In this document: positions 5,671 to 60,313 of the stretch, piece after piece
Position numbering within the stretch: position 1 is the stretch's first letter
Layout: each line of letters opens with the position of its first letter
Assembly: GCA_963707655.1 (NCBI GenBank)
Contig: OY970172.1
Span: 736,001-800,000 of the forward strand
Reading direction: 5' to 3'
Length of the DNA stretch: 64,000 nt
Origin: an uncultured bacterium
GTDB taxonomy: Bacteria > Babelota > Babeliae > Babelales > Vermiphilaceae
Made by a program: the position numbers and the translations under genes
Notes under the pieces: generated by a model
What the model was told of the DNA's origin: nothing
The model's database searches: none
What the model saw: the letters and a program-made list of their open reading frames with translations, nothing else

Positions 5671-6273
5671 TTATTGATTGGTACCACATTTTTCTTGTTG
5701 ATCATTGCCGCTTTGCGCTTGCTCAGTCGGGGTAGCATCTTTTTTGGCCATCCAGTCATAGAGCATTTTAGCAGTTATCGCAACCAGACCTGTTCCGGCA
5801 ATTGCGATTGCGAATATTGCTGCTCCTCTATTCACAGCACTCATGCGCCTTGCATGTTCAAAGTCCATTGCTGCTGCTGAGGAAAGCGCATCTCGCATCT
5901 TTTGTACCATCTCATGCTGAACGTCATTTTCTACACAAAGGTCAAGATATTCAACTATATCATGATAGTTACAATAGCAGGTCATTTTTTTTGTAACGTC
6001 CCAAAACCTAGCCTCTTTGCCGTAAAACTCGATATGGTCTATTTGAAAGGATAAAAATCGCAGCAAGCTCTCGCCCATGGTCTCAAGAGATTGAGTACTT
6101 TCTGGATTACAAAAACGCTTCTTATTCTCTAAATAAGAGTCTATGTTAAACATTTTTTGCATAGCGCTCACCGTTGCGTCTCCGGCAATCTGATCCATGG
6201 CAAAGCTGTTGCTACAAAAGGTGATCCAAGTCAAAATTACCAATGCCAGGCGATTAAATTTATTATTATTCAT
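5671..6273 (-). CDS. Hypothetical secreted protein with a C-terminal hydrophobic helix
   Basis: Signal-like N-terminus ending SFA|MDQ; hydrophobic AAIFAIAIAGTGLVAI near the C-terminus. Confidence 0.7.
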   Translation of the reverse strand: MNNNKFNRLALVILTWITFCSNSFAMDQIAGDATVSAMQKMFNIDSYLENKKRFCNPESTQSLETMGESLLRFLSFQIDHIEFYGKEARFWDVTKKMTCYCNYHDIVEYLDLCVENDVQHEMVQKMRDALSSAAAMDFEHARRMSAVNRGAAIFAIAIAGTGLVAITAKMLYDWMAKKDATPTEQAQSGNDQQEKCGTNQ

Positions 6274-6687
6274 AACATTCCATCCATTAAAATAATTGAT
6301 AATTATCACACTTATATATATTTTTCATTTTAGGCTGATTCAAAAAAAAGTCAACTTGAATTTAACGCGCGACTCTCATTGAAACCTTATGTCCAGGTTT
6401 TCTCCCCCATCTTAGCGGGAATGGGCCAAAAACTTTTTTGAGAGCCATAAGAGGAAAACCTTGAGTGCTCCAGCGCCCTGACCTCCCTTCAATTCCTAAT
6501 GAGCATTATTAATTGATGTTTTTTACCCATTTGGCCGATTATTTGACTTTTAGAAAATTTTTCACATATTATAAAAAAGAGTAGTAGACAAAATAAGCTC
6601 ACATGATACAAATATACATTACTTTTTACTATTCCAACCAAACACGACAAAAGGGTTTTACCCCATTATTAGGGATTATAATTATTT

Positions 6688-8941
6688 ATGAAAAAATTAT
6701 TAATTGTAGAGTCACCCGCCAAAATTAAAACGATTACCAAGTTCTTGGGAAAAGATTTCAAGATCATGTCCACTATGGGCCATGTCAAGGATCTTCCTAC
6801 CAAAGAGCTGGGGGTGACCATTAATAAATCTATAAATATTGATTATGTTCCCATTAAGAACAAAGAGAAAACTATTGCGGAAATCTGCAAAGCTGCTTCA
6901 ACTTCTGATGAAATCTATTTAGCGCCCGATCCTGACCGTGAGGGTGAAATTATTGCCTGGCACATTGAGCAGGAAATACAAAAAGTCGTTAAAAATAAGG
7001 CAAAAATTCATCGCATCACCTTTAACGAAATTACCAAACCGGCCATGCTTGAAGCAATTGATCACCCGGGAGATGTTGATCTTGATAAAGTTGCCGCTCA
7101 ACAAGCACGCCGCGTGCTTGATCGCTGGGTGGGCTATGAAGTATCCCCTATTTTATGGAAAAAATTAGCTCCGGGCCTTTCTGCCGGGCGCGTGCAATCT
7201 GTTGCTCTCCGCCTGATTGCCGATCGTGAAGAAGCTATTCGCGCCTTTAAGCCAGAAGAATATTGGACCGTTGTCGGCCAATTTTTACATGGTAAAGATT
7301 CTATTGAAGCAGAACTGACTGAAATAGGCAAAAATAAAGCTGAAATCAAAAATCAACAGCAAGCTGATGAGCTGGTTGAAAACATCCAAAAAGAAAGCTA
7401 TGTTATTGATTCGATTATTGATAAAGCAACGCACCAAAAATCCACTGCCTCCATTTATGACCAGTACTTTGCAGCAGGCAGCATTTAATCGCTTGGGCTT
7501 CAGTGTTAAAAAAACCATGCAAGTTGCCCAACAATTATATGAAGGTATGCCGCTAGAAGACGAAGCACTCCCGTTGCGTTAATTACCTATATGCGTACCG
7601 ATTCGTTCCGCCTTTCTGATACGGCGTTAAAACAAGCGCGCGATTTTATTGGCAAAAATTTTGATAAAGAATATTTGCCCAAAGAGCACAACGTTTATGA
7701 AAAAGCAAAAGGAAAAGGCAAAGCAGCTGCAGCGCAAGATGCTCACGAAGCGGTGCGTCCGATTAATGTGAACATCACTCCTGAGAAAGCACATAAATAT
7801 CTACCCAAAGATGTTGCAAAGCTTTATGAACTTATTTGGAAGCGCTTTGTTGCCTGCCAAATGAAGCCAGCATTATATGCACAGCGCCAAGTGGTTATTA
7901 AAGGGGGAGAATTTACCTTTAAAGTCACCGGTTCAACCCTCATATTTGATGGATTCTTGAAAGTGTACGCCGCGGACGAAGATGAAAAAGAAGACAAAGA
8001 ATTATTCCTCAAGGGCTTAAAGCTAAAGAAAAAGTTAATCTTAAAAAAGTGATGCCAAAGCAGCATTTTACTCAACCGCCACCACGATATACTGAAGCTT
8101 CATTGGTCAAAGAGATGGAAAAAGAGGGCATTGGCCGACCAAGTACCTATGCCACTATCATGAACACTATTCAGGCGCGCCACTATACCGCTCTTGATAC
8201 AAAAAAAGATTTACTCCGACTGAACTGGGAATGACGGTAACCAAAATTTTGGTTGAAAATTTACCAAAGATTATGGATCTCAAGTTCACGGCACATATGG
8301 AAGAAGATCTTGATAAAATTGCTCAAGGTGATCTTGATCGAGATACGTTATTGCGCGGGTTTTATGAAGCGTTCCAGCAAGATGTAAAAGAATTCAAAGG
8401 CAAAGATGGTAAAAAAGTTGCCGAACCGACCGACATTACCTGTCCAGAATGTGAAAAACCCAATCTGGTGATTCGATTTGGAAAAGCAGGAGAATTTTTG
8501 GGTTGCCCAGATTATCCTGATTGCGCGTTTACTACCAATTTTAAACGTGATGAAAAAGGGGATATTGAAATTGTAAAAACTGAGGGCCCTAAACTGCTCG
8601 ATGAAAAATGTCCAAAATGCGGCAAACATCTGCGCCAGGTTATTGGTAAGTTTGGTCCCTTCGTTGCCTGTTCAGGGTATCCTGACTGCAAATATATTAA
8701 GCAAAAAAAGGCGGAAGTTCCCTGCTTATCATGTGGCGGCTCATTGGTTGAACGTCGTTGGCGCGGCGGTACTTTCTGGGGATGTTCAAACTATCCAAAA
8801 TGTAAGTTCGCCGTATTTGGTGATATTGAAGAAACCCCATGTCCGCAGTGTTCGCGCGCTTACATGGCAAAGAAAGTTGATAAACAAGGAAACGCAACCC
8901 TGCTTTGCACCGATAAAAAATGTGGGTACAAAAGTAGTTAA
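6688..8941 (+). CDS. topA: DNA topoisomerase I with C-terminal Zn-ribbons, split by four apparent single-base indels
   Basis: [30 protein letters not shown] (active Tyr), [18 protein letters not shown] and repeated CPxC motifs run across ORFs 6688, 7367, 7591, 8049 and 8231. Confidence 0.93.
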
Positions 8942-8975: not shown

Positions 8976-9434
8976 ATGAAGAAGCTGCTCGTATTAATTC
9001 TTGGACTCTGCGCAACGCATGCTATGCAACAAAACCAAAAGCCATCTGCCGATGTTATGGCTTTACTTAATCAACATCAGCAGGAACTAAATGCGCTTAT
9101 TAGATTGGCGCGCCAAGATCAAAATCAACAGATAAAAAATGCTGCCAATCAGGTTGTGCACATTCAAAATCAACTTAACCAGATGCAGCATAGCGCAGCC
9201 GGCACCGCTTCACAAGGGGACCAACCACCTGCTGCGGTAAAAAAACTTGTTGAACAGCATCAACAAGCGATACAAAACCTTATTAAACAGGCTCAAGGGG
9301 CCGGATCTGCTCAAGTCAAACAAGCCGCACAAAAACTTGAAGCAACACAAAATAATATACGCAACAAGATGGAAAATTCATCGCAATCAAACGCCAATAT
9401 TCGCCAACGCAAATTAGCAACTAGAATTCAATAA
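8976..9434 (+). CDS. Secreted Gln-rich helical protein with an internal duplication
   Basis: AGGAG RBS, signal peptide THA|MQQ, two similar units of about 50 aa. Confidence 0.8.
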   Translation: MKKLLVLILGLCATHAMQQNQKPSADVMALLNQHQQELNALIRLARQDQNQQIKNAANQVVHIQNQLNQMQHSAAGTASQGDQPPAAVKKLVEQHQQAIQNLIKQAQGAGSAQVKQAAQKLEATQNNIRNKMENSSQSNANIRQRKLATRIQ

Positions 9435-9504: not shown

Positions 9505-10230
9505 CTATTTTTTTGCCGCTGGTGCTGGCGCGCTGCTGGTCGCGGCAGTCTTTTTCTTCTTTGTGCCAAAGCAACCCTTAACATCTTGCTCTACCTCTTC
9601 CACACCAATCTTAAGTCTAGCCGCCAAATCTGCTTCAAGTTCTCCTATCCTGGCTTCATATTCTTCTGCTTGTGCTGCTGCTTTCTTTCGCGCTGCAGAT
9701 AACTTTGTTTTCAGCGCAGCAATTTGTGGTGCGAACTTTGCTTCCAACGCAGCTAAATCCGCTTTCGCTGTTTCAAAATCAGTCTCTAATGTTATTACTT
9801 GTGGCGCAAGTAGTGCCGCTAAAGACAAAACCCCTTCAACCGCCGCACCGATCGCATCAACGCCGGTTTCAACTGCCGCAACTTGTGGCACGTACGTGCC
9901 TACTGTACCGGCAAAGGCATTAAATGTTGTTAATGCTGAGGCAAGATCATTCTTGTAACCATTTATCTGCGTTGCTATAGCGGCCGCTTTAGCTTCCGAT
10001 GTAGCAGCGCTGCTGCCCGGAATTGCTGGAATGGTTACGCCGGTCAGTGCCGAGCTTACTTTTGCAGTTTCTGAAGAGACGGCCGCAGCCGCTGCTTCTA
10101 CCCCTACCGCCGAGCGTGTAGTCTTTCTTCCATTACTGGCAATCTTCAGAGCCGATGATGATTTTTCTGAACCCATGCTTGAAGCTGCAAAACATATAAG
10201 AGAAACTATACATAGATAATGCATTTTCAT
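9505..10230 (-). CDS. Secreted Ala-rich coiled-coil protein
   Basis: AGGAG RBS, signal peptide, amphipathic/coiled-coil body, basic C-terminus. Confidence 0.8.
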   Translation of the reverse strand: MKMHYLCIVSLICFAASSMGSEKSSSALKIASNGRKTTRSAVGVEAAAAAVSSETAKVSSALTGVTIPAIPGSSAATSEAKAAAIATQINGYKNDLASALTTFNAFAGTVGTYVPQVAAVETGVDAIGAAVEGVLSLAALLAPQVITLETDFETAKADLAALEAKFAPQIAALKTKLSAARKKAAAQAEEYEARIGELEADLAARLKIGVEEVEQDVKGCFGTKKKKTAATSSAPAPAAKK

Positions 10231-10531: not shown

Positions 10532-11191
10532 TTAACTAATAACGCATGAACTCCGTGGAACGAGCAAACTATCTTCATCTTCTCGACCATTTTCAACAGC
10601 ATGAGCCATTTGTTGTATACGCTGCTCAAGCGCAACAAACTCTCCTAAATCTGTAGCGTTGTTGTGTGCAAGATTGATCCTATACACATCGCCTTCCTTT
10701 AAAGCTTGGACAAGAGCTGAACGGTTCTGTGCAATGTGTGACAGCTCTTGACTTCTTATAGGGCGCAAAAAATCATATAAACGAAGCATTTGAAATTGAC
10801 TCTTATCTATCTCGCTTAAATTGTTGCGTAAATATTGCAGCCTTTCAAATCGTGACAAGCCCCATAGTTTTATCTGTACTGCCATTTGCTCATCACCATC
10901 AGCCATCCAACGCGCTATACTATTTATCCGAATTAATGTGTTATGCGCCTCTTCTAGCGAGGTTTCATATATTTGAGATGAGTCTCTATAATCATTATAA
11001 GCAAGACTCTTCTTCGTTAGCACTTCTTTTGCTTGCAATTTTCCCGCCATGAAAGCTTCTATTAATGAAATCAAGTTTCTCATGCCCGAATCTTCGACAG
11101 CATTCTGCTGAATTGCAGTTTTAGAACCGGTATCACTCATCCCATAAGCAGACAAACTCAATAGCAAGCTACACAATAAGATACTTTTCAT
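10532..11191 (-). CDS. Secreted hypothetical protein ending in a CaaX box (CVIS)
   Basis: Signal peptide AYG|MSD; last residues SSCVIS*. Confidence 0.8.
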   Translation of the reverse strand: MKSILLCSLLLSLSAYGMSDTGSKTAIQQNAVEDSGMRNLISLIEAFMAGKLQAKEVLTKKSLAYNDYRDSSQIYETSLEEAHNTLIRINSIARWMADGDEQMAVQIKLWGLSRFERLQYLRNNLSEIDKSQFQMLRLYDFLRPIRSQELSHIAQNRSALVQALKEGDVYRINLAHNNATDLGEFVALEQRIQQMAHAVENGREDEDSLLVPRSSCVIS

Positions 11192-14693: not shown

Positions 14694-14767
14694 GAGAAAC
14701 ACCTTTAATTATTTTTTAGCGTCAGGCAACTATCTTTTTAGCATCATAGTGTGTAAGAAAAAATTAT

Positions 14768-15642
14768 TCAATGCTTAAAATTTGGAAGAGAGGAAAATTC
14801 GTTTTTTTGAGGAATGTAGTTAGGTCTCATAGCGAATGCAATCGTTGCATAGCGAATTTTGCCACTTTGTGCGACAATGTGAGGAGTTGGGTAGATGGAA
14901 AATTCTGTGAGAAGCGCTCCGGGAATGAGTAAGATAGAATTTTGATCCTAACCGCGAGAAAACTTTCTGAGAGGAGAAGAAAAATCATCGACGGTGAATG
15001 ATGATTTATACGGAGAAAGAAGAAGTGATTCGTTGTCTGTGCTATCAAGAAACAGAGAAAACGCAGTTCCATCGTAATGAGGCCTTGATGGCACTGTAAG
15101 AGGGAAGATATTTGATTACCTTGAAAAGAATAGGGGGCTGTCCGTATTGAGAAGAAAAAATCGTTTCCAAACCTAACTCAGCTGCCGCCTCATCAAATAG
15201 ATCTCCGTATGGCTTTTGAATCTCAGAACAAGCTTCAAAAAAACGGATGATTTCAGGAACTGCGTTTAAATTCTGGGTAGTGAGAGCAAATAAATTCATG
15301 GAAATGGGTCGAATAATAGAAGGAGATCTGGCTTCTTCCTTCTCTTTCTGATTCGTCGTAGAAACCAAAAAAATCAGTGGAGTAGTAATTTCTATCTTTT
15401 GAGCGAATAAAACGTTCTTTTGCGCTATATAATTTTTGTGCCCAAACGGGATTTGTTTGAAGAAATTCGATGAGCTCATCAAAATATGCATAGAGAGAAT
15501 CAAACGTTGCCGTTCCATGATTCTTATCGCAAATTTCGACATACCCTGCTTGCTTGAATTGCTCTGCCAGAGGCATTGCACAAAGAGATTGAAATGCAAA
15601 CAGGAGAAAAATATAGAGGAACAAAGTCTTTCGAATAATCAT
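14768..15642 (-). pseudogene. Secreted 2OG-Fe(II) oxygenase, disrupted by two frameshifts and an in-frame TAG at 14948-14950
   Basis: Manual joining gives a signal peptide followed by KVIKY...PHYDG...IPGALL...PTPHIV...RYATIAF, i.e. the HxD...H...R signature. Confidence 0.65.
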
Positions 15643-19533: not shown

Positions 19534-19608
19534 TGGCGTCCCCAGGGAGAATCGAACTCCCATTACCGCCGTGAAAGGGCGGTGTCCTAACCGTTAGACG
19601 ATGGGGAC
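19534..19608 (-). tRNA. tRNA-Glu (TTC)
   Basis: GTCCCCATCGTCTAACGGTTAGGACACCGCCCTTTCACGGCGGTAATGGGAGTTCGATTCTCCCTGGGGACGCCA folds as a cloverleaf with encoded CCA. Confidence 0.97.
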
Positions 19609-19715: not shown

Positions 19716-19791
19716 TGGTGAGCCGCGTTGGAATCGAACCAACGACCCACAGCTTAAAAGGCTGTTGCTCTACCGACTGAGCTAGCGGCTC
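19716..19791 (-). tRNA. tRNA-Lys (TTT)
   Basis: GAGCCGCTAGCTCAGTCGGTAGAGCAACAGCCTTTTAAGCTGTGGGTCGTTGGTTCGATTCCAACGCGGCTCACCA. Confidence 0.97.
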
Positions 19792-22519: not shown

Positions 22520-23071
22520 ATGAAGCAATCACGATGGCTCATTGGTATCATGTTCTACGCAGCACTATCACATGGTGCATATGTCTATAGTATGGAAGAA
22601 GCATCTGATAGGGACTCTACAAGTGGTCCGAGACGTTTTCATGACTACGTTGCATCACGCGTGAAAGATCTCGGGTCAGAAATCTCTTCCCCCATACCTA
22701 TCGACGCATTGAGCTATTGCGAAAAAAAATATCATACAAATAAACCCTTGCTAAAAACAGATTCATTTGGATTATCACTTAATGATTATCACAACTTGTA
22801 CAAAGTAGCGCATGGAAAAAAAGGTGGAAAAACATTACGACGAATCTTAAAAAGGGTGCCTTACAAATCTATTGCTATAAGGACTGATTCTGGGAGATTC
22901 ACCGCTCTTCTACGTGAAAAAGAAATTATTGTTAAGATTCTTATGGATGAACATCATGAATTCTTATCTCGCTATAAGCGTAACTGGCCCATTACCTTTC
23001 TGCAAGAAAAGCGATTCAAAGCGCTCCGCAAATATGAAAACTACCCTTTTTTTATTAATGATCCGATATAA
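22520..23071 (+). CDS. Secreted basic hypothetical protein
   Basis: AAGGGG RBS; signal-like N-terminus VYS|MEE. Confidence 0.7.
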   Translation: MKQSRWLIGIMFYAALSHGAYVYSMEEASDRDSTSGPRRFHDYVASRVKDLGSEISSPIPIDALSYCEKKYHTNKPLLKTDSFGLSLNDYHNLYKVAHGKKGGKTLRRILKRVPYKSIAIRTDSGRFTALLREKEIIVKILMDEHHEFLSRYKRNWPITFLQEKRFKALRKYENYPFFINDPI

Positions 23072-32555: not shown

Positions 32556-33350
32556 ATGGCAAGCATGAAAGCAGTTTATATCTTCATTATCAGCATTTCT
32601 TTCACACTCAATGCAATGGACTCTTCCAGTAGTGACAGCACCGAAGATATGAGCCATCCAACAATTGTACTTGACGTAGATCTTATTAGTGATGAAATGC
32701 CAACAGAAGATACCTATTCCTCGGGTCTTTCCGGCGCGCGAAAGATGTGTCGAAGTTTTAGTCTGCCAATATTGACAAAACTGGGCTGGAAAAAGAAACA
32801 AATAATAACCACGGGACAAGAATTGGCAAAAACAATACACGGCGCAACCAGCGTTACCAAGCAAACATTTGAAAATCTCGGGTTCGAGTTCAATGAGGAG
32901 CAAATCAAGCTCCTGACCTCATTGGGTGTTAAACCCCGGCCAAAAGAAGAAGGAATACAACTTGCTCAAACCCTGCATAAAAAAGGGTTTTCTCTCATTC
33001 TTGCGACACATCACGATCTTCATCATTATCGAGAGTATATTAAGCATATGGAATCGGAGCACAAGATAGTAATTCCCGATATCTTTAAAGGAGCGGTGGT
33101 AATTAAGGGTCCTTATAAAAACGACTATGATACGAGCAATATCCCCTATTTTATTTCGCATAAAGCCCGTCCATCGGCAGAATATAGCAAGGGAATTCAT
33201 TATTTGAATAATAATGCACCCGCTATCTTGTTTGATACTGATAAAAGCGCGGCAGACAAGCATGATGAATCCAGCAACATTACTGCTCATCATGTATCAA
33301 CTGCTGCTCAGGTAGAAGAAATCTTGCGTATGCTAGGATATCTGCAATAA
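32556..33350 (+). CDS. Secreted HAD-superfamily-like protein
   Basis: Signal peptide LNA|MDS; IVLDVD (motif I-like) and ILFD (motif IV-like). Confidence 0.55.
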   Translation: MASMKAVYIFIISISFTLNAMDSSSSDSTEDMSHPTIVLDVDLISDEMPTEDTYSSGLSGARKMCRSFSLPILTKLGWKKKQIITTGQELAKTIHGATSVTKQTFENLGFEFNEEQIKLLTSLGVKPRPKEEGIQLAQTLHKKGFSLILATHHDLHHYREYIKHMESEHKIVIPDIFKGAVVIKGPYKNDYDTSNIPYFISHKARPSAEYSKGIHYLNNNAPAILFDTDKSAADKHDESSNITAHHVSTAAQVEEILRMLGYLQ

Positions 33351-34762: not shown

Positions 34763-36328
34763 ATGAATAAACGCATTGCATTGATGCTGCTGGTAGCAGC
34801 CAGTTCTGCATCGCATAAAATGCTGGCGATGAGTCAGTGTTTTAACCCTGAAGGAAATCTTGAGGTAAAAGCCTTAAGCAAATCATTTTTCTCGGTGCGC
34901 CCTCCTTTTCAATTAAACTCTCCTGAATTTTTAGCAGGCTGGTGGTATGACCGCCTTGATGCAAAAGGCAAAGAATGCCGCAACGGCACGCTGCAGCTTG
35001 TTGGCCTTGGTGGAAAATCAACCGATGCCTACAACTTGGCTCGCTATTTTACCTTTAATAACAGTTCAGTGCTGCACATTGTGGAACAATCGGGCATCCC
35101 TGCCACTGATATTTTATCTGAACAAGTGGATATTTACAGCGTAGACGGCACTTTTGAAAGCTTTCTTGCTTTAAAGCCCCGCTATAGTTTTGGCGGATTG
35201 GGCATTTCTTACCGTCAAGAATTTGCGCAACGCAGTGATGGCCGCGCCTTCTGGTTCTTGGCATCCGCACCAATAATCAATATTAAAACCGGCATGCATT
35301 TAGAAGAAACCATTATTAATGATGGTGGCGGTGTAAATCCGGCGGTTCCCGGCGCCGTGCCAAATGCGGTAGAAGCGTTTTCACAAACAGCTTTTGATTT
35401 TGGCAAAATTTTGTGCGAAAACAAAACCAAAACCGGGTTGGGTGACCTTACCTTGCTCCTTGGTTACAAAACAATAGCTCATGAAGATTATAGCATGAAT
35501 GGCTACATTGGTATGATCGCGCCAACGGGCAGCCGTGTAAAATCAAAAGAGATGTTTGAAGCGGTAGTTGGTAACAATCACCACTTTGGCGCCTTGCTTG
35601 GCAGCTCTGCCAGTGTTTCTCTCTGGGAATGTGAAAATGGCTCCTGCCTTGATTTTGAATTTAGCGCTCACGGTCAATTTCTCTTTAAAAGACATGAAGT
35701 GCGTTCTTTTGATTTGAAAAACAAACCATGGAGCCGCTACATGCAAATGTACGCGAACGTAGCCGCTGCAGAAGCAGCTTTTGCTGCCGACGATCTTTAT
35801 TCAAATACAACACCGGGGATCAACATTCTAACCCAACCGGTACAAGTGTATCCCGGTTTTTCAAGCACCAGCAATACGGCAGTGGTCTTTACCTCATGCG
35901 ATGGCAACAAACAATTTGAATTGGGCTACAACTTTTACGCCCGCCAATCAGAGTATGTTGAGCTTGCCTGCCCGTGGCAAGTGGGTCCGGCGCTTAAATC
36001 ATTACTTGGTTTAGGTGGCGCAACCGACAGCGTGCAACAAATAGGCAATAACTATGGCGGCAACAACGTAGTTAATCCCGATGGTGCTCCTGCCGTGTTC
36101 TCAGTTGCTGACTATAACAGCACGCAAATACAGGTAACCGATCTTGATCTGCTTTCTGCTACCCATCCGGCAATCATCAGCAATACGGTGTATGCAAATG
36201 TAACCTACCGTTGCGATGCACATGAATATCCACGATTCATCGCCTTGGGTGGCTCTTATGAATTTGAAGAGGACAACACTACGTTGAACCGTTGGACCAT
36301 ATGGTTAAAAGGTGGCATTTCATTTTAA
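34763..36328 (+). CDS. Large putative outer-membrane beta-barrel, paralog A
   Basis: Signal peptide, amphipathic strands, C-terminal WLKGGISF; shares motifs with 39599..41437. Confidence 0.75.
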   Translation: MNKRIALMLLVAASSASHKMLAMSQCFNPEGNLEVKALSKSFFSVRPPFQLNSPEFLAGWWYDRLDAKGKECRNGTLQLVGLGGKSTDAYNLARYFTFNNSSVLHIVEQSGIPATDILSEQVDIYSVDGTFESFLALKPRYSFGGLGISYRQEFAQRSDGRAFWFLASAPIINIKTGMHLEETIINDGGGVNPAVPGAVPNAVEAFSQTAFDFGKILCENKTKTGLGDLTLLLGYKTIAHEDYSMNGYIGMIAPTGSRVKSKEMFEAVVGNNHHFGALLGSSASVSLWECENGSCLDFEFSAHGQFLFKRHEVRSFDLKNKPWSRYMQMYANVAAAEAAFAADDLYSNTTPGINILTQPVQVYPGFSSTSNTAVVFTSCDGNKQFELGYNFYARQSEYVELACPWQVGPALKSLLGLGGATDSVQQIGNNYGGNNVVNPDGAPAVFSVADYNSTQIQVTDLDLLSATHPAIISNTVYANVTYRCDAHEYPRFIALGGSYEFEEDNTTLNRWTIWLKGGISF

Positions 36329-36354: not shown

Positions 36355-38013
36355 ATGAATATCAAACAAAGCATACTACTCATCATGCTTTTTGCTGTCG
36401 CCGGCACTATGGCAATGGCCGCCAAGTACCCAAACACGAGTGTTGGCACGAACAAAGCTAATGCCGATGCAATGGCACTCTTAAAACAAGACATTTTTGG
36501 CGATACAGAGCTTACGGGTGTGACAAACATTATCAATCTCTTAAAAAGCAGAAAACAAAATTTAATTGCTGCCAATCTAGAAAAAGCGCTTTATCGGAAA
36601 ATTGCCGCTGGCAAGGAGCGTGATATCGAGACCTTGAAAGAAGGGATTAGAGCTAGAGCAGGACAATTGGCCGGTCGAGAAGAAGAATACGCAGAGTTGG
36701 AAAACAAATATCGCGAAAAATTAGCACAAGCAGAAGAGTCTGCAGCAAGAGCTAATGATCTTATGCAAGAGCGTGATAGCCTGCAACGTGAACTCGCAGA
36801 CGCAACGAGCAAAGGGGACACAGCTGCAATCGACAAGCTCAAACAGGACAATCTTGATCTTCAGGTCCAAATAACAAGGGCCGCAACAGAGCAAGCTCAG
36901 GCTAAGCAAGCATTAGAGCTGGCTAAAGCAACAGCCGCAGAGGTAGAGCGAAAATTTAACGAAGAAAGACAAAGAGCTCTTGATGCCTTCACGGAACAGA
37001 TTAATGATATTGTGAATCATTCAAAGCAATTGGCATCGGATATTGGAAAATTATTAGGTGATGATGCAACACGCGCTGCAACACTGCCTATTTTATTATC
37101 TTCAACTAAAGAATCGCTTGACGTAGTTGCCCTTCGTGCTCAAGATGACAAGAAACTGCAAACAGCTTTACTCAACGAAGCCAACAACCACCAAAGTAGT
37201 GTTAAAGATTATGCTCGTTGGATAATTATTAATGCGGCTCAAGGTGGGCATAAGTGGGCAGAAGACGCGTTAGTTAAGAATACGCACCTGGTAAAAAATG
37301 GTACAATTGAAGTACCAGCGCTCCATGAGTGGAGCCGTGATGCAATTGTACTTATGTCACCACAGTATGATTGGGCATTTAAAAAAGTAGTCGCATTGCT
37401 CGATCATAACGACAATGAACCTGCGCTACAAACGTTTGCCAAAGTGCAAGCTGACAAAGGCAATGCGAACTTTGCAAAATATTTAGTGGAAAAAGCTGTT
37501 TATGCCGCATGGAACTATGATTCTAAGCTCGGCACAGACTACGGCACATGGGTTCTGTGTATTCTCAAGAATAGCTCAGCAGCAGGGAGAGCTTGGGCTA
37601 GAGACGCAATTAAGGCAATGGCCAGCGAGCAATTAGAAATGTTTAATGACCTTCATTACAAATTTACCAGTGAGAAGATAAGAGGAGCGATACGCAACAA
37701 AAACAGCGAAAAAACTTACATAGATCAAGCACGCGCATGGGCTGTCAACCCAAACTACAAATGCTCATACACGCCGAATAATGCTTACGCAGGAAAAAAA
37801 CTTCCTGCGCAACCAAAAACGGGACGTTACAAAGTGCCTAAGCGGCCTGACTATATCCCTGAAGATACTTCTAAGCCTGTCGCGTCGCCTAGCGAGCCTG
37901 CTGAAGAGTCTGAAATGCCAGAGCCAGTAGCAGAGCCTGTTGCATCGCCTAGCGAGCCTGCTGAAGAGTCTGAAACGCCAGAGCCAATTGGAGGAAATCC
38001 TTTTTCTGATTAG
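36355..38013 (+). CDS. Secreted coiled-coil / helical-repeat protein with a Pro/Glu tail ending NPFSD
   Basis: Signal peptide, coiled coil, Sel1-like A..G...A helices, duplicated tail. Confidence 0.8.
   Translation: MNIKQSILLIMLFAVAGTMAMAAKYPNTSVGTNKANADAMALLKQDIFGDTELTGVTNIINLLKSRKQNLIAANLEKALYRKIAAGKERDIETLKEGIRARAGQLAGREEEYAELENKYREKLAQAEESAARANDLMQERDSLQRELADATSKGDTAAIDKLKQDNLDLQVQITRAATEQAQAKQALELAKATAAEVERKFNEERQRALDAFTEQINDIVNHSKQLASDIGKLLGDDATRAATLPILLSSTKESLDVVALRAQDDKKLQTALLNEANNHQSSVKDYARWIIINAAQGGHKWAEDALVKNTHLVKNGTIEVPALHEWSRDAIVLMSPQYDWAFKKVVALLDHNDNEPALQTFAKVQADKGNANFAKYLVEKAVYAAWNYDSKLGTDYGTWVLCILKNSSAAGRAWARDAIKAMASEQLEMFNDLHYKFTSEKIRGAIRNKNSEKTYIDQARAWAVNPNYKCSYTPNNAYAGKKLPAQPKTGRYKVPKRPDYIPEDTSKPVASPSEPAEESEMPEPVAEPVASPSEPAEESETPEPIGGNPFSD
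37876..37986 (+). repeat. Tandem duplication, 60-bp period
   Basis: Two copies encoding PVASPSEPAEESE(M/T)PEP at 37876 and 37936. Confidence 0.9.
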
Positions 38014-46177: not shown

Positions 46178-46606
46178 TTACAGTTGTGGCAGCGGCTCTA
46201 TCTGGCTGAGCCGCAACAGTTCTTGTATGTTTTCGAGCTTTTCATCTCGTTTTCTTTTAATTTTTATTCTTTGTTTTTTGAGATTGTTTCTTTGTGCAAT
46301 CTGCGGCATTAATAGGTTATCATATATCCACATGCGGTCAGATATATCTCCTGCTTGCGCAAACATGGCCCTTCTAATCTGTATTTGTTTTTCTGCTTGG
46401 GCACTCTGTGCTTTTAAAGCTTCTTCTTGCGCATATAAGGCCGCCCTGTCTTCGTATTCCAAAGGCAAGCATCTTTCTGCCGCTAATTGCGCCAATGCTT
46501 CAAGCCCTGCTCTGTTTTCGCTGTTTTCATAGCCATCGTGCTCCATGGATAATGCAATACTGCCAGAAACCAGCAACAATGTGGCTATAACTATCTTGAT
46601 ATTCAT
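46178..46606 (-). CDS. Secreted helical hypothetical protein with a basic NLS-like patch
   Basis: GAGG RBS, ALS|MEH, KKQRIKIKRKR. Confidence 0.75.
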   Translation of the reverse strand: MNIKIVIATLLLVSGSIALSMEHDGYENSENRAGLEALAQLAAERCLPLEYEDRAALYAQEEALKAQSAQAEKQIQIRRAMFAQAGDISDRMWIYDNLLMPQIAQRNNLKKQRIKIKRKRDEKLENIQELLRLSQIEPLPQL

Positions 46607-48559: not shown

Positions 48560-49027
48560 ATGACCATCGTTAAAAAAATAAGGTTGTATATCTGCCTCGC
48601 GCTTACGACCATAACCATGGGCAATGCGCACGGGGCTGAGAGCTCCACTCAAGACGAATGGCCAGCTTATTCTTTAACGCTCGACATACACAGAAGAAAT
48701 GAAACACCGGCATATGTTAAGTTTACGCTGATGGACAGAGGGCATGAGATAGGGCACATAAACGGATACCTGCCATATGCCGATGATGTTTATGGATGTA
48801 TTCTGAGTCTGAATGTCGAGAATGCTTGGCAAGGCAAGGGTGTTGGGAGCTGGCTCCTGCAATTATTTACCAAAGAATGTGATAAGCGGGTGCATGGCGA
48901 TCTGAACCAAGGCCTCAAGTTATACTCGCTGACGGGGAGTGTTAGTTTTTATGAAAAACATGGTTTTGTTAAAGAAAATCCGAACGCCATAAATGGTCCT
49001 TTTGACATGATTCGGAAAAAAAATTGA
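48560..49027 (+). CDS. GNAT acetyltransferase with a signal peptide
   Basis: LNV...WQGKGVGSWLL acetyl-CoA motif, FYEKHGF; AHG|AE signal site. Confidence 0.85.
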   Translation: MTIVKKIRLYICLALTTITMGNAHGAESSTQDEWPAYSLTLDIHRRNETPAYVKFTLMDRGHEIGHINGYLPYADDVYGCILSLNVENAWQGKGVGSWLLQLFTKECDKRVHGDLNQGLKLYSLTGSVSFYEKHGFVKENPNAINGPFDMIRKKN

Positions 49028-53551: not shown

Positions 53552-54913
53552 ATGAAGAGTTTATATTCTGTTGTACTGTTTTTTAGTCTCATCAATAACA
53601 ACTACGCTCACTCAACATATGACGGCTTGATAGAAAATCTTCATGCTGCCTGCGTTGACACCGTTGATTTCTTATTCACCGACATTCTTGGCTCGTTGCG
53701 CTGTGTAACCGTTCCCCTCCTCGCTGCTGCTGACGCTTTTAAGAACGGTATGGAATTTGATGGCTCATCTATTCCCGGCTATGTATCAATCTATGAAAGC
53801 GATATGCATCTCAAGCCCGATATGAACACATTGCAGATCGTAGACAATAAAGCACATGTCATATGCGATATTTATTGCTCCGCTTGCGATCCTTATGAGG
53901 GGGATCCGCGTTACTTATTGAAAAAACAATTAGAGCGCGCGAAAACATTAGGATATGAATTTTATGTAGGTCCAGAATTAGAATTCTTTTTATTAGATAA
54001 TCAAAACAACGATCCTGTTGATGCAAGCTGTTATTTTGATGCAAGCGACACAACTTCTCTTGACTATCAAAAACGCACATTGATAAATGCATTGGTACGA
54101 AACGAGATTGGTGTTGAAAAATGGCATCACGAAGTCGCCAAAGGCCAACACGAAACAAGCCTTCACTATGCTGACGCATTGGTTATGGCTGACCAAATTG
54201 TGCGCGCAAAACAAGTACTAAAAATGCAAGCGTATGAATTGGGCCTTCGCGCATTGTTCATGCCAAAGCCCTTTTTCGGCATGAACGGCAGTGGCATGCA
54301 TATTCATTTTAGTTTGTATGATAGCGCTTTATGCAAAAACGCTTTTTACGAAAAAGATAACCCACTCTATTTATCAGACACCGCGCACCATTTTATTGCC
54401 GGTGTTTTAAAATATGTGCCCGCAATGAGCGCGATTTGCAATCCTACCGTTAATTCATACAAAAGATTGGTTGCCGGTTATGAGGCGCCGGTCTATGTTT
54501 GTTGGGCGTCAAAAAATAGAAGTGCCTTAGTCAGAATTCCACAAATTGATGCAACGCAAGCATCTGCTGCTCGTGCTGAATTACGTTCGCCCGATGCCAT
54601 GAGCAATCCGTATGCGTTGTTTGCTTTGCTGTTGGCCGCAGGCTTGCAGGGCATAGAAGATGAGCTGGAATTGGCTCCTCCCGTAGAACAAAATTTGTAC
54701 AAACTTTCTTTAGAACAAATAAAAACGAGCGGCATCACTATGTTGCCCGAATCGTTGCAAGATGCGCTGATATGCTTGAGCCAAAATGATTTTGTTAAGC
54801 GCGCATTGAGCGATCGTTTTGTCCAAGAGTTTGTATACATAAAGCAAAAAGAAGTTGAGCAATTTAATCGTACAGTTACTAATTGGGAATGGAAGCAATA
54901 TGCGTCAAAATGA
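53552..54913 (+). CDS. glnA: Glutamine synthetase type I with an apparent N-terminal signal peptide
   Basis: FTDILG, FDGSSI, GPELEFF, HHEVA.GQHE, FMPKP..GSGMHIHFS, NSYKRLV.GYEAP, NRSALVRIP, ELRSPD. Confidence 0.92.
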   Translation: MKSLYSVVLFFSLINNNYAHSTYDGLIENLHAACVDTVDFLFTDILGSLRCVTVPLLAAADAFKNGMEFDGSSIPGYVSIYESDMHLKPDMNTLQIVDNKAHVICDIYCSACDPYEGDPRYLLKKQLERAKTLGYEFYVGPELEFFLLDNQNNDPVDASCYFDASDTTSLDYQKRTLINALVRNEIGVEKWHHEVAKGQHETSLHYADALVMADQIVRAKQVLKMQAYELGLRALFMPKPFFGMNGSGMHIHFSLYDSALCKNAFYEKDNPLYLSDTAHHFIAGVLKYVPAMSAICNPTVNSYKRLVAGYEAPVYVCWASKNRSALVRIPQIDATQASAARAELRSPDAMSNPYALFALLLAAGLQGIEDELELAPPVEQNLYKLSLEQIKTSGITMLPESLQDALICLSQNDFVKRALSDRFVQEFVYIKQKEVEQFNRTVTNWEWKQYASK

Positions 54914-57226: not shown

Positions 57227-60200
57227 ATGAATTTTAAAACAATTTTATATACATTCATGTTAATGTTGACCCCTGCACTTCTCCATGGAATGGCACAACC
57301 GCCACAACCGGTTCAGTCTATTGCCAATGATGCCAAAGCACGAGTAACCGAGGCCATACAAAAAAACGATTTTGCGGCAGCACAAAAAGTCATCAATGAA
57401 TTACAGATCACACACCAGAGCGTCAGGGCTCCAGGGCCAGCATCTGTCCTGGCAGACATGGTAAAACAGTTGCAAGTAATTTTGCAGCAAGCAATGGCGA
57501 ATTATCAACAACTGAATCAGCCGATAGCTCCCGCGCCACAACCGGCATTAGTTCTGCCTGCACCTAAATTTAATCCCCAAGCTGGGATGCTCCCAAAACC
57601 TCAACCCGCGCCGAGCACGCCAGCGCCAATGGCCTATCCGCAAGCGGGGATACTCCCAACGCCTCAGCCAATGCCAGGAGTTATACCTGCACCTAAATTT
57701 AATCCCCAAGCTGGAATGCTCCCAAAACCTCAAGCCGCACCGAGCGCGCCAGCGCCAGTGGTCTATCCGCAAGCTGGACGACTACCGGCATATCAACCGG
57801 TTCCAGTGAGCTATTCGCAGCAACCAGCGCAATCACCAACAGCTCAGCTCATGCCAGGAGTTGTACCTGGACGCCTACCGATACTTCAACCAGCGTCACC
57901 AAATACCCCGGCAACACCGCAAATAATGCCTGGACAACAACTCCAAGGACAACCAACGCCAGTAGGCTACCCGCAAGCTGGTCGACTGCCTACACCAGCA
58001 GCCCCGGTGGTAAATCCGCCCCAACAAGCTCCATCGTTGCGGGGGCAGCCCGTTGTCCCGGCACATGTACTTGCAACAATGGCAAAGAACAAACCGGCAC
58101 TCTATCCTGCAATGGCATATCTAGGGCAATACATGCAATCACCAGCACCAAGCGCACCAGCAAACATTGCGGCTGGACAGCTGCAAGTACCGGCTGCAAA
58201 TGAAATCCCCACGAGCATAGAAAATTTATCAGAGATGGAGGCGAAAACCGCGATAATCAAAGCTCTTCTTCATGGTATAGAACAAGGAATACGGGCCGGG
58301 AATACCTTCAATGCCATTGCTGCAAAAAATTGCTGGCTCCAGCATGTAATGCAGGAATGGGGTGCCGGTGCCGCCTATCAAAAATATGTTGAAGATACAA
58401 TTATCAAAGGGGTCAAGAGCCGCTATGGGTCGCTGGACACAAGCAATCAGAACACCGTAAATGCGTTCATCAGAGCCAGCGCGAGCGACCCACTTTTTGC
58501 AGCGGCTTATATATTTACTTTAGACAAAGCGGCTTTCCCTACCGTTGCAAACACTATCAAGTCTTATCAAGTCTTTAATCCATTGCAGAATCAGATAGAT
58601 CAATTCATTAAAGATCAAGAGTATGAAAAAGCCATTAGTTATGCTTACCTTTTTAAGGATTTGAGTTCAATATACCGTGAAAATCGAAGTCCTCAGCAAA
58701 ACACCGCAGGAAATCCTTTTTTGCTTGATACATTAACAATGGCCCCAGATACGTTTAAGAATATCGATGAGCAATTAAAAGGGTTATTGAGGGTCAATGA
58801 CAATACAAAAATCAGAGAGATGATTAATAATTTGTATGCAGAAAAAAAATACATCACTGCCAGTTATGTGTGGATGATTTCATCAGCATACAATGTCGTT
58901 TACTCTCAAATCCCAGCAGCAACAAGTGCAAATCAGCCCGCCGCCAGCGAGATAACGGATAGCGCTCCGTTCAATATTGCCTTTGATCAGTGGTACAGCA
59001 GCTGTAACGCGGCGCTACAAAATTCTGCGGTTAAACCATTATCTTTTGATGCATTTAAGCAGGCCATGAATATATTCATAAATAAGACCAAAGCACGATT
59101 TGCCAATGCAAATAAATGGTTCAACACCGATAACTTGAATACCAATATTCCCGAAGGAAACATACCTTATGTTGAACGCGTGCATATTCCCAAAGGCTCT
59201 ATTGTTGGGTTCCATGCTGATATTCATGGCAACGTGCAGGCATTAAACAGTTATTTGAGAGCGCTTGCAGATAAAGGTTATCTAGATAAGCAGAACCAAT
59301 TTAAAATAGCTGATCCTAATTTTTACCTCATATTTTTAGGGGACTATGTTGATCGCGGCATTTTTGGCGTAGAGGTTTTATACACTCTCATGCGCTTAAA
59401 ACTCACCAATCCCGATCGTGTATTCTTGGCACGCGGGAACCATGAAGACGCAGACTTCCAAAACGTGCTGCCTAATGGCCTACTTACCAGAGAAGTGGCT
59501 ACCAAATTTGGCGTTCAGATTGAGAATGAGCTTGCCAAACTCCTTCCATCGCTCTATAACTGCCTGCCTGTTGCACTATACACACAAGTGGGCAATGCAG
59601 CTAAAAAAGAATATATTTTGTGTTGCCATGGTGGTTGGGATGTAGGTTATGATCCAGTGCCGTTTTTAACAGCAAATAAAACCTACCATGCTTTTGATAC
59701 GCTACATTACAAAGACATACTTGATCAATTACCCGGTGACATTCGCACCACACTTCAATCGTTTGCCAACAGGTATCCGCGAGGCGCGGGGAAATACACG
59801 CAAAATCCTAAAATAACAGATATAACTAGTTTAGACTTTTTGTGGAACGATTTTTATTATGAGGATGAAACAACAGTTGCTGAATTCATGGACGGGAGAG
59901 GCTTGCAAATGGGCCAACCGCTCATACAAGCGCTTCGTAGCCTGACGGCACACAATGGTATTAATATTCAGGCTATTTTTAGAGCGCATCAGCATTCCGG
60001 CCTCAGCAGAGCCCCAATGTGGATGCGCGCAATGGTCGATAATAAAGTTACTAAATTGTGGCCACTTGCAAGATCTGCGGACCCTGCCCTATGGCTCGGC
60101 ATGGTTATTACCTTTTTAGTTTCACCTAATGAAGGATACCCAAATACCTTTGATTCCTGGGGAGAATTGCACGTGGGAGACGATTTTGTCTCATCAAGCA

Positions 60201-60313
60201 TGGAAACGTTCCAAAATAATAAAAATGTCGGCATCAAGACTGAGGTCCCAACGCCAAGTCCATCGTCGCGTTCGTTATTCCCCATGTCCTTTGGATCATC
60301 GGAACAGCTATAA
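57227..60313 (+). CDS. Secreted Pro/Gln-rich protein with a C-terminal PPP-family Ser/Thr phosphatase domain
   Basis: ADIHG, LGDYVDRG, ARGNHE, CHGG, FLWND, FRAHQ; signal peptide LHG|MAQ. Confidence 0.88.
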   Translation: MNFKTILYTFMLMLTPALLHGMAQPPQPVQSIANDAKARVTEAIQKNDFAAAQKVINELQITHQSVRAPGPASVLADMVKQLQVILQQAMANYQQLNQPIAPAPQPALVLPAPKFNPQAGMLPKPQPAPSTPAPMAYPQAGILPTPQPMPGVIPAPKFNPQAGMLPKPQAAPSAPAPVVYPQAGRLPAYQPVPVSYSQQPAQSPTAQLMPGVVPGRLPILQPASPNTPATPQIMPGQQLQGQPTPVGYPQAGRLPTPAAPVVNPPQQAPSLRGQPVVPAHVLATMAKNKPALYPAMAYLGQYMQSPAPSAPANIAAGQLQVPAANEIPTSIENLSEMEAKTAIIKALLHGIEQGIRAGNTFNAIAAKNCWLQHVMQEWGAGAAYQKYVEDTIIKGVKSRYGSLDTSNQNTVNAFIRASASDPLFAAAYIFTLDKAAFPTVANTIKSYQVFNPLQNQIDQFIKDQEYEKAISYAYLFKDLSSIYRENRSPQQNTAGNPFLLDTLTMAPDTFKNIDEQLKGLLRVNDNTKIREMINNLYAEKKYITASYVWMISSAYNVVYSQIPAATSANQPAASEITDSAPFNIAFDQWYSSCNAALQNSAVKPLSFDAFKQAMNIFINKTKARFANANKWFNTDNLNTNIPEGNIPYVERVHIPKGSIVGFHADIHGNVQALNSYLRALADKGYLDKQNQFKIADPNFYLIFLGDYVDRGIFGVEVLYTLMRLKLTNPDRVFLARGNHEDADFQNVLPNGLLTREVATKFGVQIENELAKLLPSLYNCLPVALYTQVGNAAKKEYILCCHGGWDVGYDPVPFLTANKTYHAFDTLHYKDILDQLPGDIRTTLQSFANRYPRGAGKYTQNPKITDITSLDFLWNDFYYEDETTVAEFMDGRGLQMGQPLIQALRSLTAHNGINIQAIFRAHQHSGLSRAPMWMRAMVDNKVTKLWPLARSADPALWLGMVITFLVSPNEGYPNTFDSWGELHVGDDFVSSSMETFQNNKNVGIKTEVPTPSPSSRSLFPMSFGSSEQL
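57557..57778 (+). repeat. Tandem duplication with a 129-bp (43-aa) period
   Basis: CCTGCACCTAAATTTAATCCCCAAGCTGG at 57557 and 57686. Confidence 0.9.

What the first reader, a model, noticed from the sequence alone, without database searches (positions are those of the whole stretch)
5671..60313. Recurrent Met at +1 after the signal-peptidase site in many orphan secreted proteins
Seen: SFA|MD (gene starting 6273), THA|MQ (8976), ASS|MG (10230), AYG|MS (11191), LCA|MP (15642), VYS|ME (22520), LNA|MD (32556), MLA|MS (34763), TMA|MA (36355), ALS|ME (46606) and LHG|MA (57227). That is about 11 of roughly 25 signal-bearing ORFs, with cleavage sites assigned by eye. Established: Ala is the typical +1 residue of Sec substrates. 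In eukaryotes N-terminal Met is N-end-rule stabilising, MD/ME/MQ are NatB acetylation substrates, and MG/MS/MA are MetAP substrates. Inference: either the mature proteins mimic natively translated host N-termini, or the Met marks substrates for a second export step (GspE, a pseudopilin and a PilO/GspM-like gene are in this window), or new effectors arise by grafting a signal peptide onto an existing ORF.
Basis: partly seen in the sequence, partly recalled or inferred. Interest (0 to 1): 0.78.

Follow-up and report, generated by a model that had tools for sequence, protein, structure and literature searches.

The report
Methionine right after signal-peptide cleavage sites
In this stretch of an uncultured bacterium's genome, an unusual share of lineage-specific exported proteins have a methionine at or next to the point where the export signal is cut off, which most likely marks old start codons onto which export signals were added.

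Summary
All 11 quoted N-termini are in the sequence. The excess of Met at the signal/mature junction is real, but smaller than claimed.

- **Cleavage sites.** I scored sites with a published Gram-negative matrix, leaving out its P1' column. Met is at +1 of the top site in 6 of 31 signal-bearing ORFs and in a near-tie in 3 more. Two listed sites (10230, 34763) are not supported.
- **Background.** The curated Gram-negative set has Met at P1' in 0 of 307; Fisher P = 3.7e-7.
- **Independence.** The 11 proteins are not paralogues of one another and share no DNA cassette. Ten of 11 have no Pfam family.
- **Start-site features.** The first ATGs have Shine-Dalgarno sites and open RNA; the junction ATGs have neither.
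- **Relatives.** One orthologue at 41% identity keeps ..NA|MD. The only close relative's contig has its own LVA|MD orphan.
- **Grafting precedent.** Glutamine synthetase here carries a signal-like 19-residue extension that ends exactly where a homologue's Met1 lies.

Best reading (about 0.4): signal peptides were grafted as 5' extensions onto existing ORFs, and the old initiator Met survives. A functional +1 Met, a lineage-specific peptidase preference and dual initiation remain open. This rests on one 64-kb window; a genome-wide test is needed.

The parts
5671..6273 (-). Orphan ORF, 200 aa. Signal peptide of 25 aa, SFA|MD. Junction ATG at 6196-6198.
   Evidence: Top PWM site, 11.4 bits. Only itself found among 1.84 billion representatives. 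No Pfam or NCBIfam family.
8976..9434 (+). Orphan ORF, 152 aa. Signal peptide of 16 aa, THA|MQ. Junction ATG at 9024-9026.
   Evidence: Top PWM site, 7.8 bits. AGGAG before the first ATG.
9505..10230 (-). Orphan ORF, 241 aa. The listed site ASS|MG is not supported. Met at 10174-10176 lies at -2 of the top site SMG|S.
   Evidence: PWM 9.1 for SMG|S against -0.0 for ASS|M. The rule-based predictor gave CFA|A 3.08 against ASS|M 3.01.
10532..11191 (-). Orphan ORF, 219 aa. Signal peptide of 17 aa, AYG|MS. Junction ATG at 11138-11140.
   Evidence: Top PWM site, 10.2 bits.
15253..15642 (-). Orphan ORF, 129 aa, overlapped by a longer ORF in another frame (15045-15599) and possibly broken. LCA|MP. Junction ATG at 15574-15576.
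   Evidence: Top PWM site, 5.0 bits. No family, PDB or Atlas lead.
22520..23071 (+). Orphan ORF, 183 aa. VYS|ME. Junction ATG at 22592-22594. Weak call.
   Evidence: Top PWM site at only 1.9 bits. The rule-based predictor preferred ALS|H or SHG|A.
32556..33350 (+). ORF of 264 aa. LNA|MD. Junction ATG at 32616-32618. The only Met-class protein with a relative.
   Evidence: Top PWM site, 6.0 bits. Orthologue P0002 (41% identity) keeps TNA|MD although the signal peptide has diverged.
34763..36328 (+). ORF of 521 aa, paralogue of 39548-41437. The listed site MLA|MS is not supported. Met at 34829-34831 lies inside a 19-residue insert after the homologous site SSA|S.
36355..38013 (+). Orphan ORF, 552 aa. 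TMA|MA or AMA|AK. Met at 36415-36417.
   Evidence: PWM 8.3 against 9.5. Only itself found.
46178..46606 (-). Orphan ORF, 142 aa. ALS|ME or SIA|LS. Met at 46544-46546.
   Evidence: PWM 4.7 against 5.3.
57227..60313 (+). ORF of 1028 aa with a Metallophos domain at residues 664-923. LHG|MA, or a site 2 residues upstream. Met at 57290-57292.
   Evidence: PWM 6.1 against 6.3. Pfam. Only itself found.
53552..54913 (+). Glutamine synthetase with a 19-residue signal-like N-terminal extension and no Met at the junction (NYA|HS).
   Evidence: AAGGAG lies 7 nt before the ATG. Residue 21 aligns with residue 2 of PDB 8ool_A. TIGR00653 scores 445.8 bits.
48560..49027 (+). GNAT acetyltransferase with a signal peptide. 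Met20 sits at the end of the hydrophobic stretch, 6 residues before the top site AHG|A.
962..2044 (-). TPR (BatC-like) protein. Met at -3 of the top site MQA|K.

Best explanation
These are ordinary Sec / signal peptidase I signal peptides. The Met at or beside the cleavage site is most likely the retained initiator Met of an ORF that once started there.

In this lineage, which exports a very large share of its lineage-specific proteins, signal peptides would have been added as 5' extensions of about 16-25 codons: a new upstream ATG with its own ribosome-binding site, a basic n-region and a hydrophobic h-region. The cleavage motif then evolved in the freely evolving residues just upstream of the old start, so that cutting releases the original N-terminus.

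**Shown:** the excess of Met at the junction; that the upstream ATG is the working start; that the Met-class proteins are unrelated to one another; and that one normally cytoplasmic enzyme family in the window has such an extension ending at the ancestral residue 1.

**Inferred:** that the Met is a former start codon, and that the extension came second.
For: 1. Met is the most enriched residue after a small residue at positions 15-28 (6.5x; 12 of 31 ORFs against 1.84 expected). It is absent from P1' in 307 curated Gram-negative signal peptides. Former use as a start codon explains why it is Met in particular.
2. The first ATGs look like start sites: mean anti-SD duplex energy -4.9 kcal/mol and local fold -2.5 kcal/mol. 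The junction ATGs do not: -0.09 and -6.4, like the other internal ATGs at -1.6 and -5.9. They are therefore not current SD-led starts.
3. The 11 proteins are not paralogues of one another at E <= 1e-3 (the one pair involving a Met-class gene is 34763 with the non-Met 39548). Their 5' regions share no DNA cassette. The events are independent.
4. Ten of 11 Met-class proteins have no Pfam family, and the six Pfam-bearing signal proteins with a usable top PWM site have Q, K, S, L, A and H at +1 (ankyrin and WD40 gave none). Of the four Met-class proteins searched for homologues, three (6273, 36355, 57227) found only themselves.
5. Glutamine synthetase (53552) has a signal-like extension behind a strong AAGGAG. 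Its predicted cut NYA|H falls where Met1 of a homologue aligns. Grafting onto an existing N-terminus, exact to the residue, therefore occurs in this genome.
6. Mets also lie at -6 to +7 of the top site in further ORFs (2044, 10230, 34763, 36355, 46606, 48310, 48560, 57227), as expected if the cut can drift around an old start.
7. Gain and loss of whole signal peptides by insertion or deletion of the N-terminal region is documented in Enterobacterales: 34 gains and 145 losses of this kind (PMC5952966, section 19 read).
Against: - No homologue of any Met-class protein was found that lacks the signal peptide and starts at the Met. This is the direct test, and it could not be made because the proteins are orphans.
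- The one orthologue pair (41% identity) keeps the Met and its neighbours N-A-M-D. That fits selection at least as well as a neutral relic.
- In 34763 the signal peptide is shared with paralogues and the Met lies in a later insert, so it is no relic there.
- In 32556 a second invariant Met 11 residues downstream, just before a by-eye HAD-like DVDLI motif, is an equally good candidate for an old start.
- No TTG or GTG (former alternative starts) was seen at +1 of the 20 non-Met signal ORFs.
- GC content of the signal-coding part does not differ between Met-class and other signal ORFs (0.374 vs 0.365, P = 0.69).
- The sharp peak at exactly +1 needs the added assumption that the cut evolves right at the old N-terminus.
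Confidence: 0.4

Rival explanations
1. The Met is selected as the N-terminal residue of the mature exported protein. It could mark a sub-secretome for a later step such as outer-membrane passage or vesicle loading, or it could give proteins that reach the host cytosol an N-terminus that looks newly translated.
For: - Met peaks exactly at +1: 6 top sites plus 3 near-ties of 31.
- It is preceded by A, S, G or T in 15 of the 19 Mets found at positions 15-28.
- It is kept, with its neighbours, in an orthologue at 41% identity whose signal peptide has diverged.
- It recurs in the related MAG contig as LVA|MD (L001 7414-8202).
- It is confined to lineage-specific proteins, as effectors would be.
Against: - I know of no sorting or stability role for a mature N-terminal Met in bacterial secretion, and two literature searches found none.
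- Ala, Ser or Gly, the usual +1 residues, would also be stabilising in the eukaryotic N-degron pathway (my knowledge), so Met is not required for that.
- The mature N-termini share no motif beyond the Met.
- The type II/IV ATPase gene is in three pieces in this assembly.
- One conserved pair is thin evidence, because the whole segment around the Met is conserved.
Confidence: 0.22
2. The signal peptidase or translocon of this lineage prefers or tolerates Met at P1', one more lineage-specific variant of the cleavage motif.
For: - Cleavage motifs do differ between lineages, with F at -2 and non-Ala residues at -3 and -1 in low-alanine genomes (PMC3509430, passages read).
- This window shows such motifs: SFA, LFA, LCA, LNA.
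- The residue after the Met (D, Q, S, P, E, D in the six firm cases) fits the published P2' preference for D, E, P and T.
Against: - None of the six Pfam-bearing signal proteins with a usable top PWM site (BatD, TPR, PLD, BamD-like, GNAT, glutamine synthetase) has Met at +1 of its top site, nor do family A (39548 and its L001 orthologue) or the L001 FKBP.
- The split is 1 of 9 against 10 of 22 by my count. It is suggestive only, and I ran no test on it.
Confidence: 0.13
3. Two in-frame starts give two products: an exported form from the first ATG and a cytoplasmic form from the junction ATG.
For: - The codon is always ATG.
- There are precedents. The Enterobacter Tli immunity protein has proposed cytosolic forms from Mets downstream of the signal sequence (bioRxiv 10.1101/2023.03.28.534661, passages read). 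Salmonella PagC and OmpX have proteoform pairs with and without the signal peptide (PMC11005335, passages read).
Against: - The junction ATGs have no Shine-Dalgarno pairing: mean -0.09 kcal/mol against -4.9 for the first ATGs.
- They have no open RNA structure: -6.4 against -2.5 kcal/mol, and no different from other internal ATGs, P = 0.63.
- They have no -10-like hexamer that could give a leaderless transcript: mean 3.0 of 6 matches against 3.1.
Confidence: 0.1
4. Chance, together with cleavage sites chosen by eye to fall before a Met.
For: - Five of the 11 listed sites are not the top site of the published matrix.
- The sample is a single 64-kb window.
Against: - A test free of site assignment gives 12 of 31 against 1.84 expected.
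- Scoring that ignores P1' still puts Met first among +1 residues, at 6 of 31.
- 0 of 307 in curated data and 1 of 124 in the control ORFs.
Confidence: 0.05

Closest known systems
Sec signal peptides cleaved by signal peptidase I
   Same: Basic n-region, hydrophobic h-region, small residues at -3 and -1, lengths of 16-25 residues, and acidic, Pro or polar residues at +2.
   Different: Met at +1 in 6-9 of 31, against 0 of 307 curated Gram-negative, 0.60% of 168 Gram-positive and 1.12% of 1877 eukaryotic signal peptides.
Gain and loss of whole signal peptides among orthologues (Enterobacterales; PMC5952966)
   Same: Whole N-terminal signal regions are inserted or deleted while the rest of the protein stays alike. 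[quoted passage not shown]
   Different: In the section I read, that study reports no retained Met at the junction and found gains to be rare. Here the footprint would be frequent and concentrated in lineage-specific proteins. No signal-less relatives are available to show the direction of change.
N-terminal proteoform pairs from in-frame alternative starts (Tli; PagC and OmpX)
   Same: An in-frame Met lies just after or within the signal sequence, so a signal-less product is possible in principle.
   Different: Possible ribosome-binding sites are marked before the Tli Mets in that paper's figure legend. Here the junction ATGs lack SD pairing, open structure and a -10 box.
Lineage-specific signal peptidase I motifs (PMC3509430)
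   Same: Departure from AxA in low-alanine genomes, with F at -2. The window has SFA, LFA, LCA and LNA.
   Different: The variation reported there concerns -3, -2 and -1. I saw no report of Met at +1 in the passages read.
Secretomes of Dependentiae (Chromulinavorax destructans; PMC6561590)
   Same: 44% of CDS carry signal sequences, enriched in ORFans, with many ankyrin proteins. In this window 31 of the 72 ORFs called bear a signal, alongside ankyrin and WD40 proteins.
   Different: The window's lineage is not identified. Its nearest public genome is an unclassified MAG (SHMT 83% identical). The passages read say nothing about +1 residues.

Membership tests
Sec / signal peptidase I signal peptide | Positively charged n-region followed by an uncharged hydrophobic h-region of about 8-20 residues | tested here: met
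   All 11 listed N-termini.
Sec / signal peptidase I signal peptide | Small uncharged residues at -3 and -1, with no Pro from -3 to +1 | tested here: met
   At the listed sites, -1 is A, A, S, G, A, S, A, A, A, S, G and -3 is S, T, A, A, L, V, L, M, T, A, L. Six are the top site of the published matrix.
Sec / signal peptidase I signal peptide | Cleavage actually occurs at the predicted bond | not testable with these tools
   Needs N-terminal proteomics. No SignalP was available.
Lipoprotein (signal peptidase II) signal | Lipobox ending in Cys at +1 | tested here: not met
   None of the 11 has Cys after the junction. Only 51923 (LLPG|C) looks like a lipoprotein.
Tat signal | Twin-arginine motif in the n-region | tested here: not met
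   None of the 11 n-regions has an RR pair.
Type IV prepilin leader | Short leader, cleavage after Gly, Phe or Met at +1, then a hydrophobic helix with Glu at +5 | tested here: not met
   The hydrophobic stretch precedes the Met and polar sequence follows it. The window's true pseudopilin, 27439-27933, does match PF07963.
In-frame alternative initiation (N-terminal proteoforms) | Initiation signals at the internal start: SD pairing, low local RNA structure, or a 5'-terminal AUG of a leaderless transcript | tested here: not met
   Actual initiation was not measured.
Signal peptide gained by N-terminal extension | Relatives that lack the signal peptide and start at the junction residue | tested here: inconclusive
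   Met for glutamine synthetase. For the Met-class proteins, no signal-less relatives were found, because almost no relatives exist.

The most novel reading that the evidence does not exclude
Met at P1' is a functional mark. In this host-dependent lineage, a class of fast-evolving exported proteins is released by signal peptidase with an N-terminal Met that is read afterwards, either by a second export or vesicle-loading step or by the host's N-terminal processing machinery. This would define a sequence-recognisable effector sub-secretome.
Probability: 0.2. Interest if true: 0.8.

Novelty: new variant of a known kind. Interest (0 to 1): 0.58.

Why it matters
Met is essentially absent from the first mature position of known bacterial signal-peptide substrates: 0 of 307 Gram-negative.

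- **If the relic reading holds:** the junction Met is a visible record of how a host-dependent bacterium turned ORFs into exported proteins. It would give a simple sequence criterion for dating and counting signal-peptide gains, which were found to be rare elsewhere.
- **If the Met is functional:** it would be a new determinant in bacterial protein export or in effector fate inside host cells.

Either way, the claim is cheap to test genome-wide on the full genome and its relatives.

Tried and rejected
- **Paralogy.** All-against-all BLASTP of 72 window ORFs found two pairs (2041/3039 and 34763/39548), neither joining two Met-class proteins. Mature N-termini compared at relaxed settings gave one 12-residue match (36355 vs 8976, E = 0.15), not significant.
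- **Shared promoter-plus-signal DNA cassette.** Only 10-14-nt chance matches among 31 5' regions.
- **Internal SD-led start.** Rejected.
- **Open RNA at the junction ATG.** Rejected.
- **Internal -10 box for a leaderless transcript.** Rejected.
- **Former TTG or GTG starts at +1 of the non-Met signal ORFs.** None in 20.
- **GC of the signal-coding region, Met-class vs others.** No difference.
- **Homologue searches.** 57227, 36355 and 6273 found only themselves. 32556 found one orthologue.
- **Family and structure searches on the Met-class proteins.**
  - NCBIfam: nothing above the cut-offs.
  - Pfam at E <= 10: only a weak HAD hit for P0002.
  - PDB by sequence: no hits for alignment A1 (32556 family); one non-significant hit (E = 0.96) for 15642. 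A further query, the non-Met GNAT 48560, also found nothing.
  - ESM Atlas: unnamed clusters for 34763 and no usable hit for 15642.
- **AlphaFold2 model of 32556 from 3 sequences.** Mean pLDDT 38.2, too poor for a fold search, so none was run.
- **Genome scan with SHMT as anchor.** The window's own genome is not in the collection. One close relative came back (L001, 8.5 kb), plus 79 unrelated loci that I used as a control.
- **The listing of cluster members** could not be run.
- **Not examined.** No SignalP-type predictor was available.

Full report
**What the window is.** It is 64 kb at about 42% G+C. Housekeeping genes (SHMT, HisRS, MgtE, UvrC, a BatA-D-like cluster, TamB, a BamD-like gene) are interleaved with many ORFs that match no Pfam family and begin with signal peptides, and with signal-bearing ankyrin, WD40, GNAT and PLD-like proteins. 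The window's own genome is not in the genome collection. The nearest record is an 8.5-kb contig of an unclassified MAG (L001), whose SHMT is 83% identical; the next hits are at 63% or less and come from unrelated phyla. I therefore do not name the lineage. The high share of signal-bearing orphans recalls what is reported for Dependentiae, where 44% of CDS carry signal sequences, enriched in ORFans (PMC6561590, passages read).

**The observation.** All 11 quoted N-termini are there. Each first ATG is preceded by a Shine-Dalgarno-like run at normal spacing, so the long forms are the translated ones. I curated 31 signal-bearing ORFs by eye.

**Cleavage sites scored without reference to Met.** I took the published residue frequencies for P10-P10' of 307 experimentally supported Gram-negative signal peptides (PMC2638155, Additional file 2, read in full). 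I scored every position from 13 to 35 with the P1' column left out.
- Met is the commonest +1 residue of the top sites: 6 of 31 (6273, 8976, 11191, 15642, 22520, 32556). The 22520 score is weak, and my rule-based predictor did not admit that site.
- In three more genes (36355, 46606, 57227) the Met site trails the top site by 1.2 bits or less.
- In 10230 the listed site scores -0.0 against 9.1 for SMG|S.
- In 34763 the top site is SSA|S. Alignment with its paralogue 39548 and the L001 orthologue puts the homologous cut there, with the Met inside a 19-residue insert.
- So the tally is six firm, three open and two unsupported.

**Is it more than chance?**
- In the same published matrix, Met at P1' is 0.00% (Gram-negative, n = 307), 0.60% (Gram-positive, n = 168) and 1.12% (eukaryotes, n = 1877).
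- 6 of 31 against 0 of 307 gives Fisher P = 3.7e-7. Against 1 of 124 signal-like ORFs from the 79 unrelated loci under the same scoring, P = 2.5e-4.
- A test that needs no cleavage call: a small residue (A, G or S) followed by Met at residues 15-28 occurs in 12 of 31 ORFs, against 1.84 expected from the per-position rate in the rest of the same proteins (Poisson 6e-7). Met is the most enriched of the 20 residues, at 6.5x. That null does not correct for the zone's richness in small residues (33% against 23%).
- With the automatic pipeline the figures are 11 of 29 against 8 of 124, P = 5e-5. By my reading, most of the eight control cases are dinucleotide-binding-fold N-termini or membrane segments rather than signal peptides.
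- The control set is crude. Its +1 residues are dominated by F, I and L, so it contains many membrane proteins.

**Independence.** BLASTP of all 72 ORFs against each other finds no pair of Met-class proteins. The first 120 mature residues share nothing significant. The 5' regions (-100 to +90) share only 10-14-nt chance matches. The cases are independent, not a duplicated family or a mobile promoter-plus-signal cassette.

**Are the junction ATGs starts today?** They do not look like it.
- Mean duplex energy with an anti-SD octamer is -4.9 kcal/mol for the first ATGs, -0.09 for the junction ATGs and -1.6 for 66 other in-frame internal ATGs of the same genes.
- Local folding energy of 41-nt windows is -2.5 for the first ATGs (different from internal ATGs, P = 4e-4) and -6.4 for the junction ATGs. 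That does not differ from 65 other internal ATGs at -5.9 (P = 0.63).
- A -10-like hexamer 4-10 nt upstream, which a leaderless internal transcript would need, is no better matched than at other internal ATGs (3.0 vs 3.1 of 6).

**Relatives.**
- Three of the four Met-class proteins searched have no relatives beyond themselves: 57227 and 36355 in the 5.8-billion-protein set, and 6273 in 1.84 billion representatives read in full by HMMER.
- 32556 has one orthologue (P0002, 41% identity). Its signal peptide has diverged, but the junction reads TNA|MD against LNA|MD, within a well-conserved acidic segment.
- L001 carries an orphan of its own with LVA|MD (7414-8202). That is 1 of 4 signal-like ORFs on the contig.
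- The trait is therefore not confined to one genome.

**A graft that can be seen.** The window's glutamine synthetase (TIGR00653, 445.8 bits) starts MKSLYSVVLFFSLINNNYA|HSTYDG..., behind AAGGAG at 7 nt. Its residue 21 aligns with residue 2 of the Methanothermococcus enzyme (PDB 8ool_A). The 19-residue signal-like extension therefore ends, and the top-scoring cut falls (weak score 0.4), exactly at the position of the homologue's initiator Met, which here is His. This shows that N-terminal signal-like extensions are added to pre-existing N-termini in this genome, to the residue. It does not show that the same happened to the orphans.

**Weighing the explanations.**
- A former start codon is the only reading that accounts directly for the residue being Met. 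It fits the restriction to lineage-specific proteins: 10 of 11 without a Pfam family, while the six Pfam-bearing signal proteins with a usable top site have Q, K, S, L, A and H at +1. It also fits the scatter of further Mets from -6 to +7 around the top sites and the documented gain and loss of whole signal peptides (PMC5952966, section 19 read).
- Several results count against it: the conserved Met in the one orthologue pair, the 34763 case, a second invariant Met 11 residues downstream in 32556 that sits just before a by-eye HAD-like DVDLI motif (weak PF00702 hit of P0002, E = 0.0068, below the cut-off), and the lack of any signal-less relative.
- A functional mature N-terminal Met would explain the exact +1 position and the conservation. 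It has no known mechanism, and two literature searches found no report of natural +1 Met enrichment.
- A peptidase preference is weakened by the conserved envelope proteins lacking the Met.
- Dual initiation is weakened.
- The residues after the Met (D, Q, S, P, E, D in the firm cases) match the published P2' preference (D 17.3%, E 16.9%, P 10.8%, T 10.8%). This supports the placement of the cut but does not separate the models.

**Limits.**
- The evidence comes from one 64-kb window and one 8.5-kb relative.
- No trained signal-peptide predictor was available.
- The published matrix comes from alanine-rich model organisms and may misplace sites in this lower-alanine genome.
- The list of 31 ORFs is my own curation.

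Noticed in passing
window 6688-8941 (+): DNA topoisomerase I is spread over four consecutive ORFs (6688-7488, 7591-8052, 8049-8234, 8231-8941) that match successive parts of the Pfam models. This is either gene decay or indel errors in the assembly.
   Followed up: partly
window 28662-30373 (-): The type II/IV secretion ATPase (PF00437) is split into three ORFs covering profile positions 4-72, 120-263 and 264-369. A pseudopilin with an N-methylation motif lies next to it at 27439-27933.
   Followed up: partly
window 53552-54913 (+): Glutamine synthetase has a 19-residue signal-peptide-like N-terminal extension behind a strong Shine-Dalgarno site. Whether it is exported, membrane-anchored or neither is unknown.
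   Followed up: partly
window 32556-33350 (+) and protein P0002: By eye this family shows HAD-phosphatase-like motifs (DVDLI near the mature N-terminus, then LILAT and FDTD). The only computed support is a sub-threshold PF00702 hit of P0002, and the AlphaFold2 model was unusable (pLDDT 38).
   Followed up: partly
window 12159-14702 (-) and 44078-44926 (-): There are glycine-rich ORFs. The first region is read in several overlapping frames behind one signal peptide (start 14693) and may be a broken large surface protein. The second is a 282-aa signal-bearing protein with long GGGGG runs.
   Followed up: no
window 34763-36328, 39548-41437 (+); L001 3085-5178 (-): This is a family of 520-630-aa signal-bearing proteins with no Pfam family. 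There are two paralogues in the window (25% identity) and a 65%-identical orthologue of 39548 in L001. The nearest Atlas clusters are unnamed.
   Followed up: partly
window 17560-19272 (-), 49787-51790 (+), 48560-49027 (+): Ankyrin-repeat, WD40-repeat and GNAT acetyltransferase proteins each begin with a signal peptide or membrane anchor. This is typical of host-associated bacteria that export eukaryote-like proteins.
   Followed up: no
window 19534-19608 and 19716-19791 (-): tRNA-Glu(TTC) and tRNA-Lys(TTT) genes lie here. The ORFs listed over them are spurious.
   Followed up: yes
window 8976-9434 and 36355-38013 (+): The two proteins share a short motif, AD[VA]MALL[NK]Q, near their mature N-termini (12 residues, E = 0.15 in a tiny database). 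It is probably chance.
   Followed up: partly
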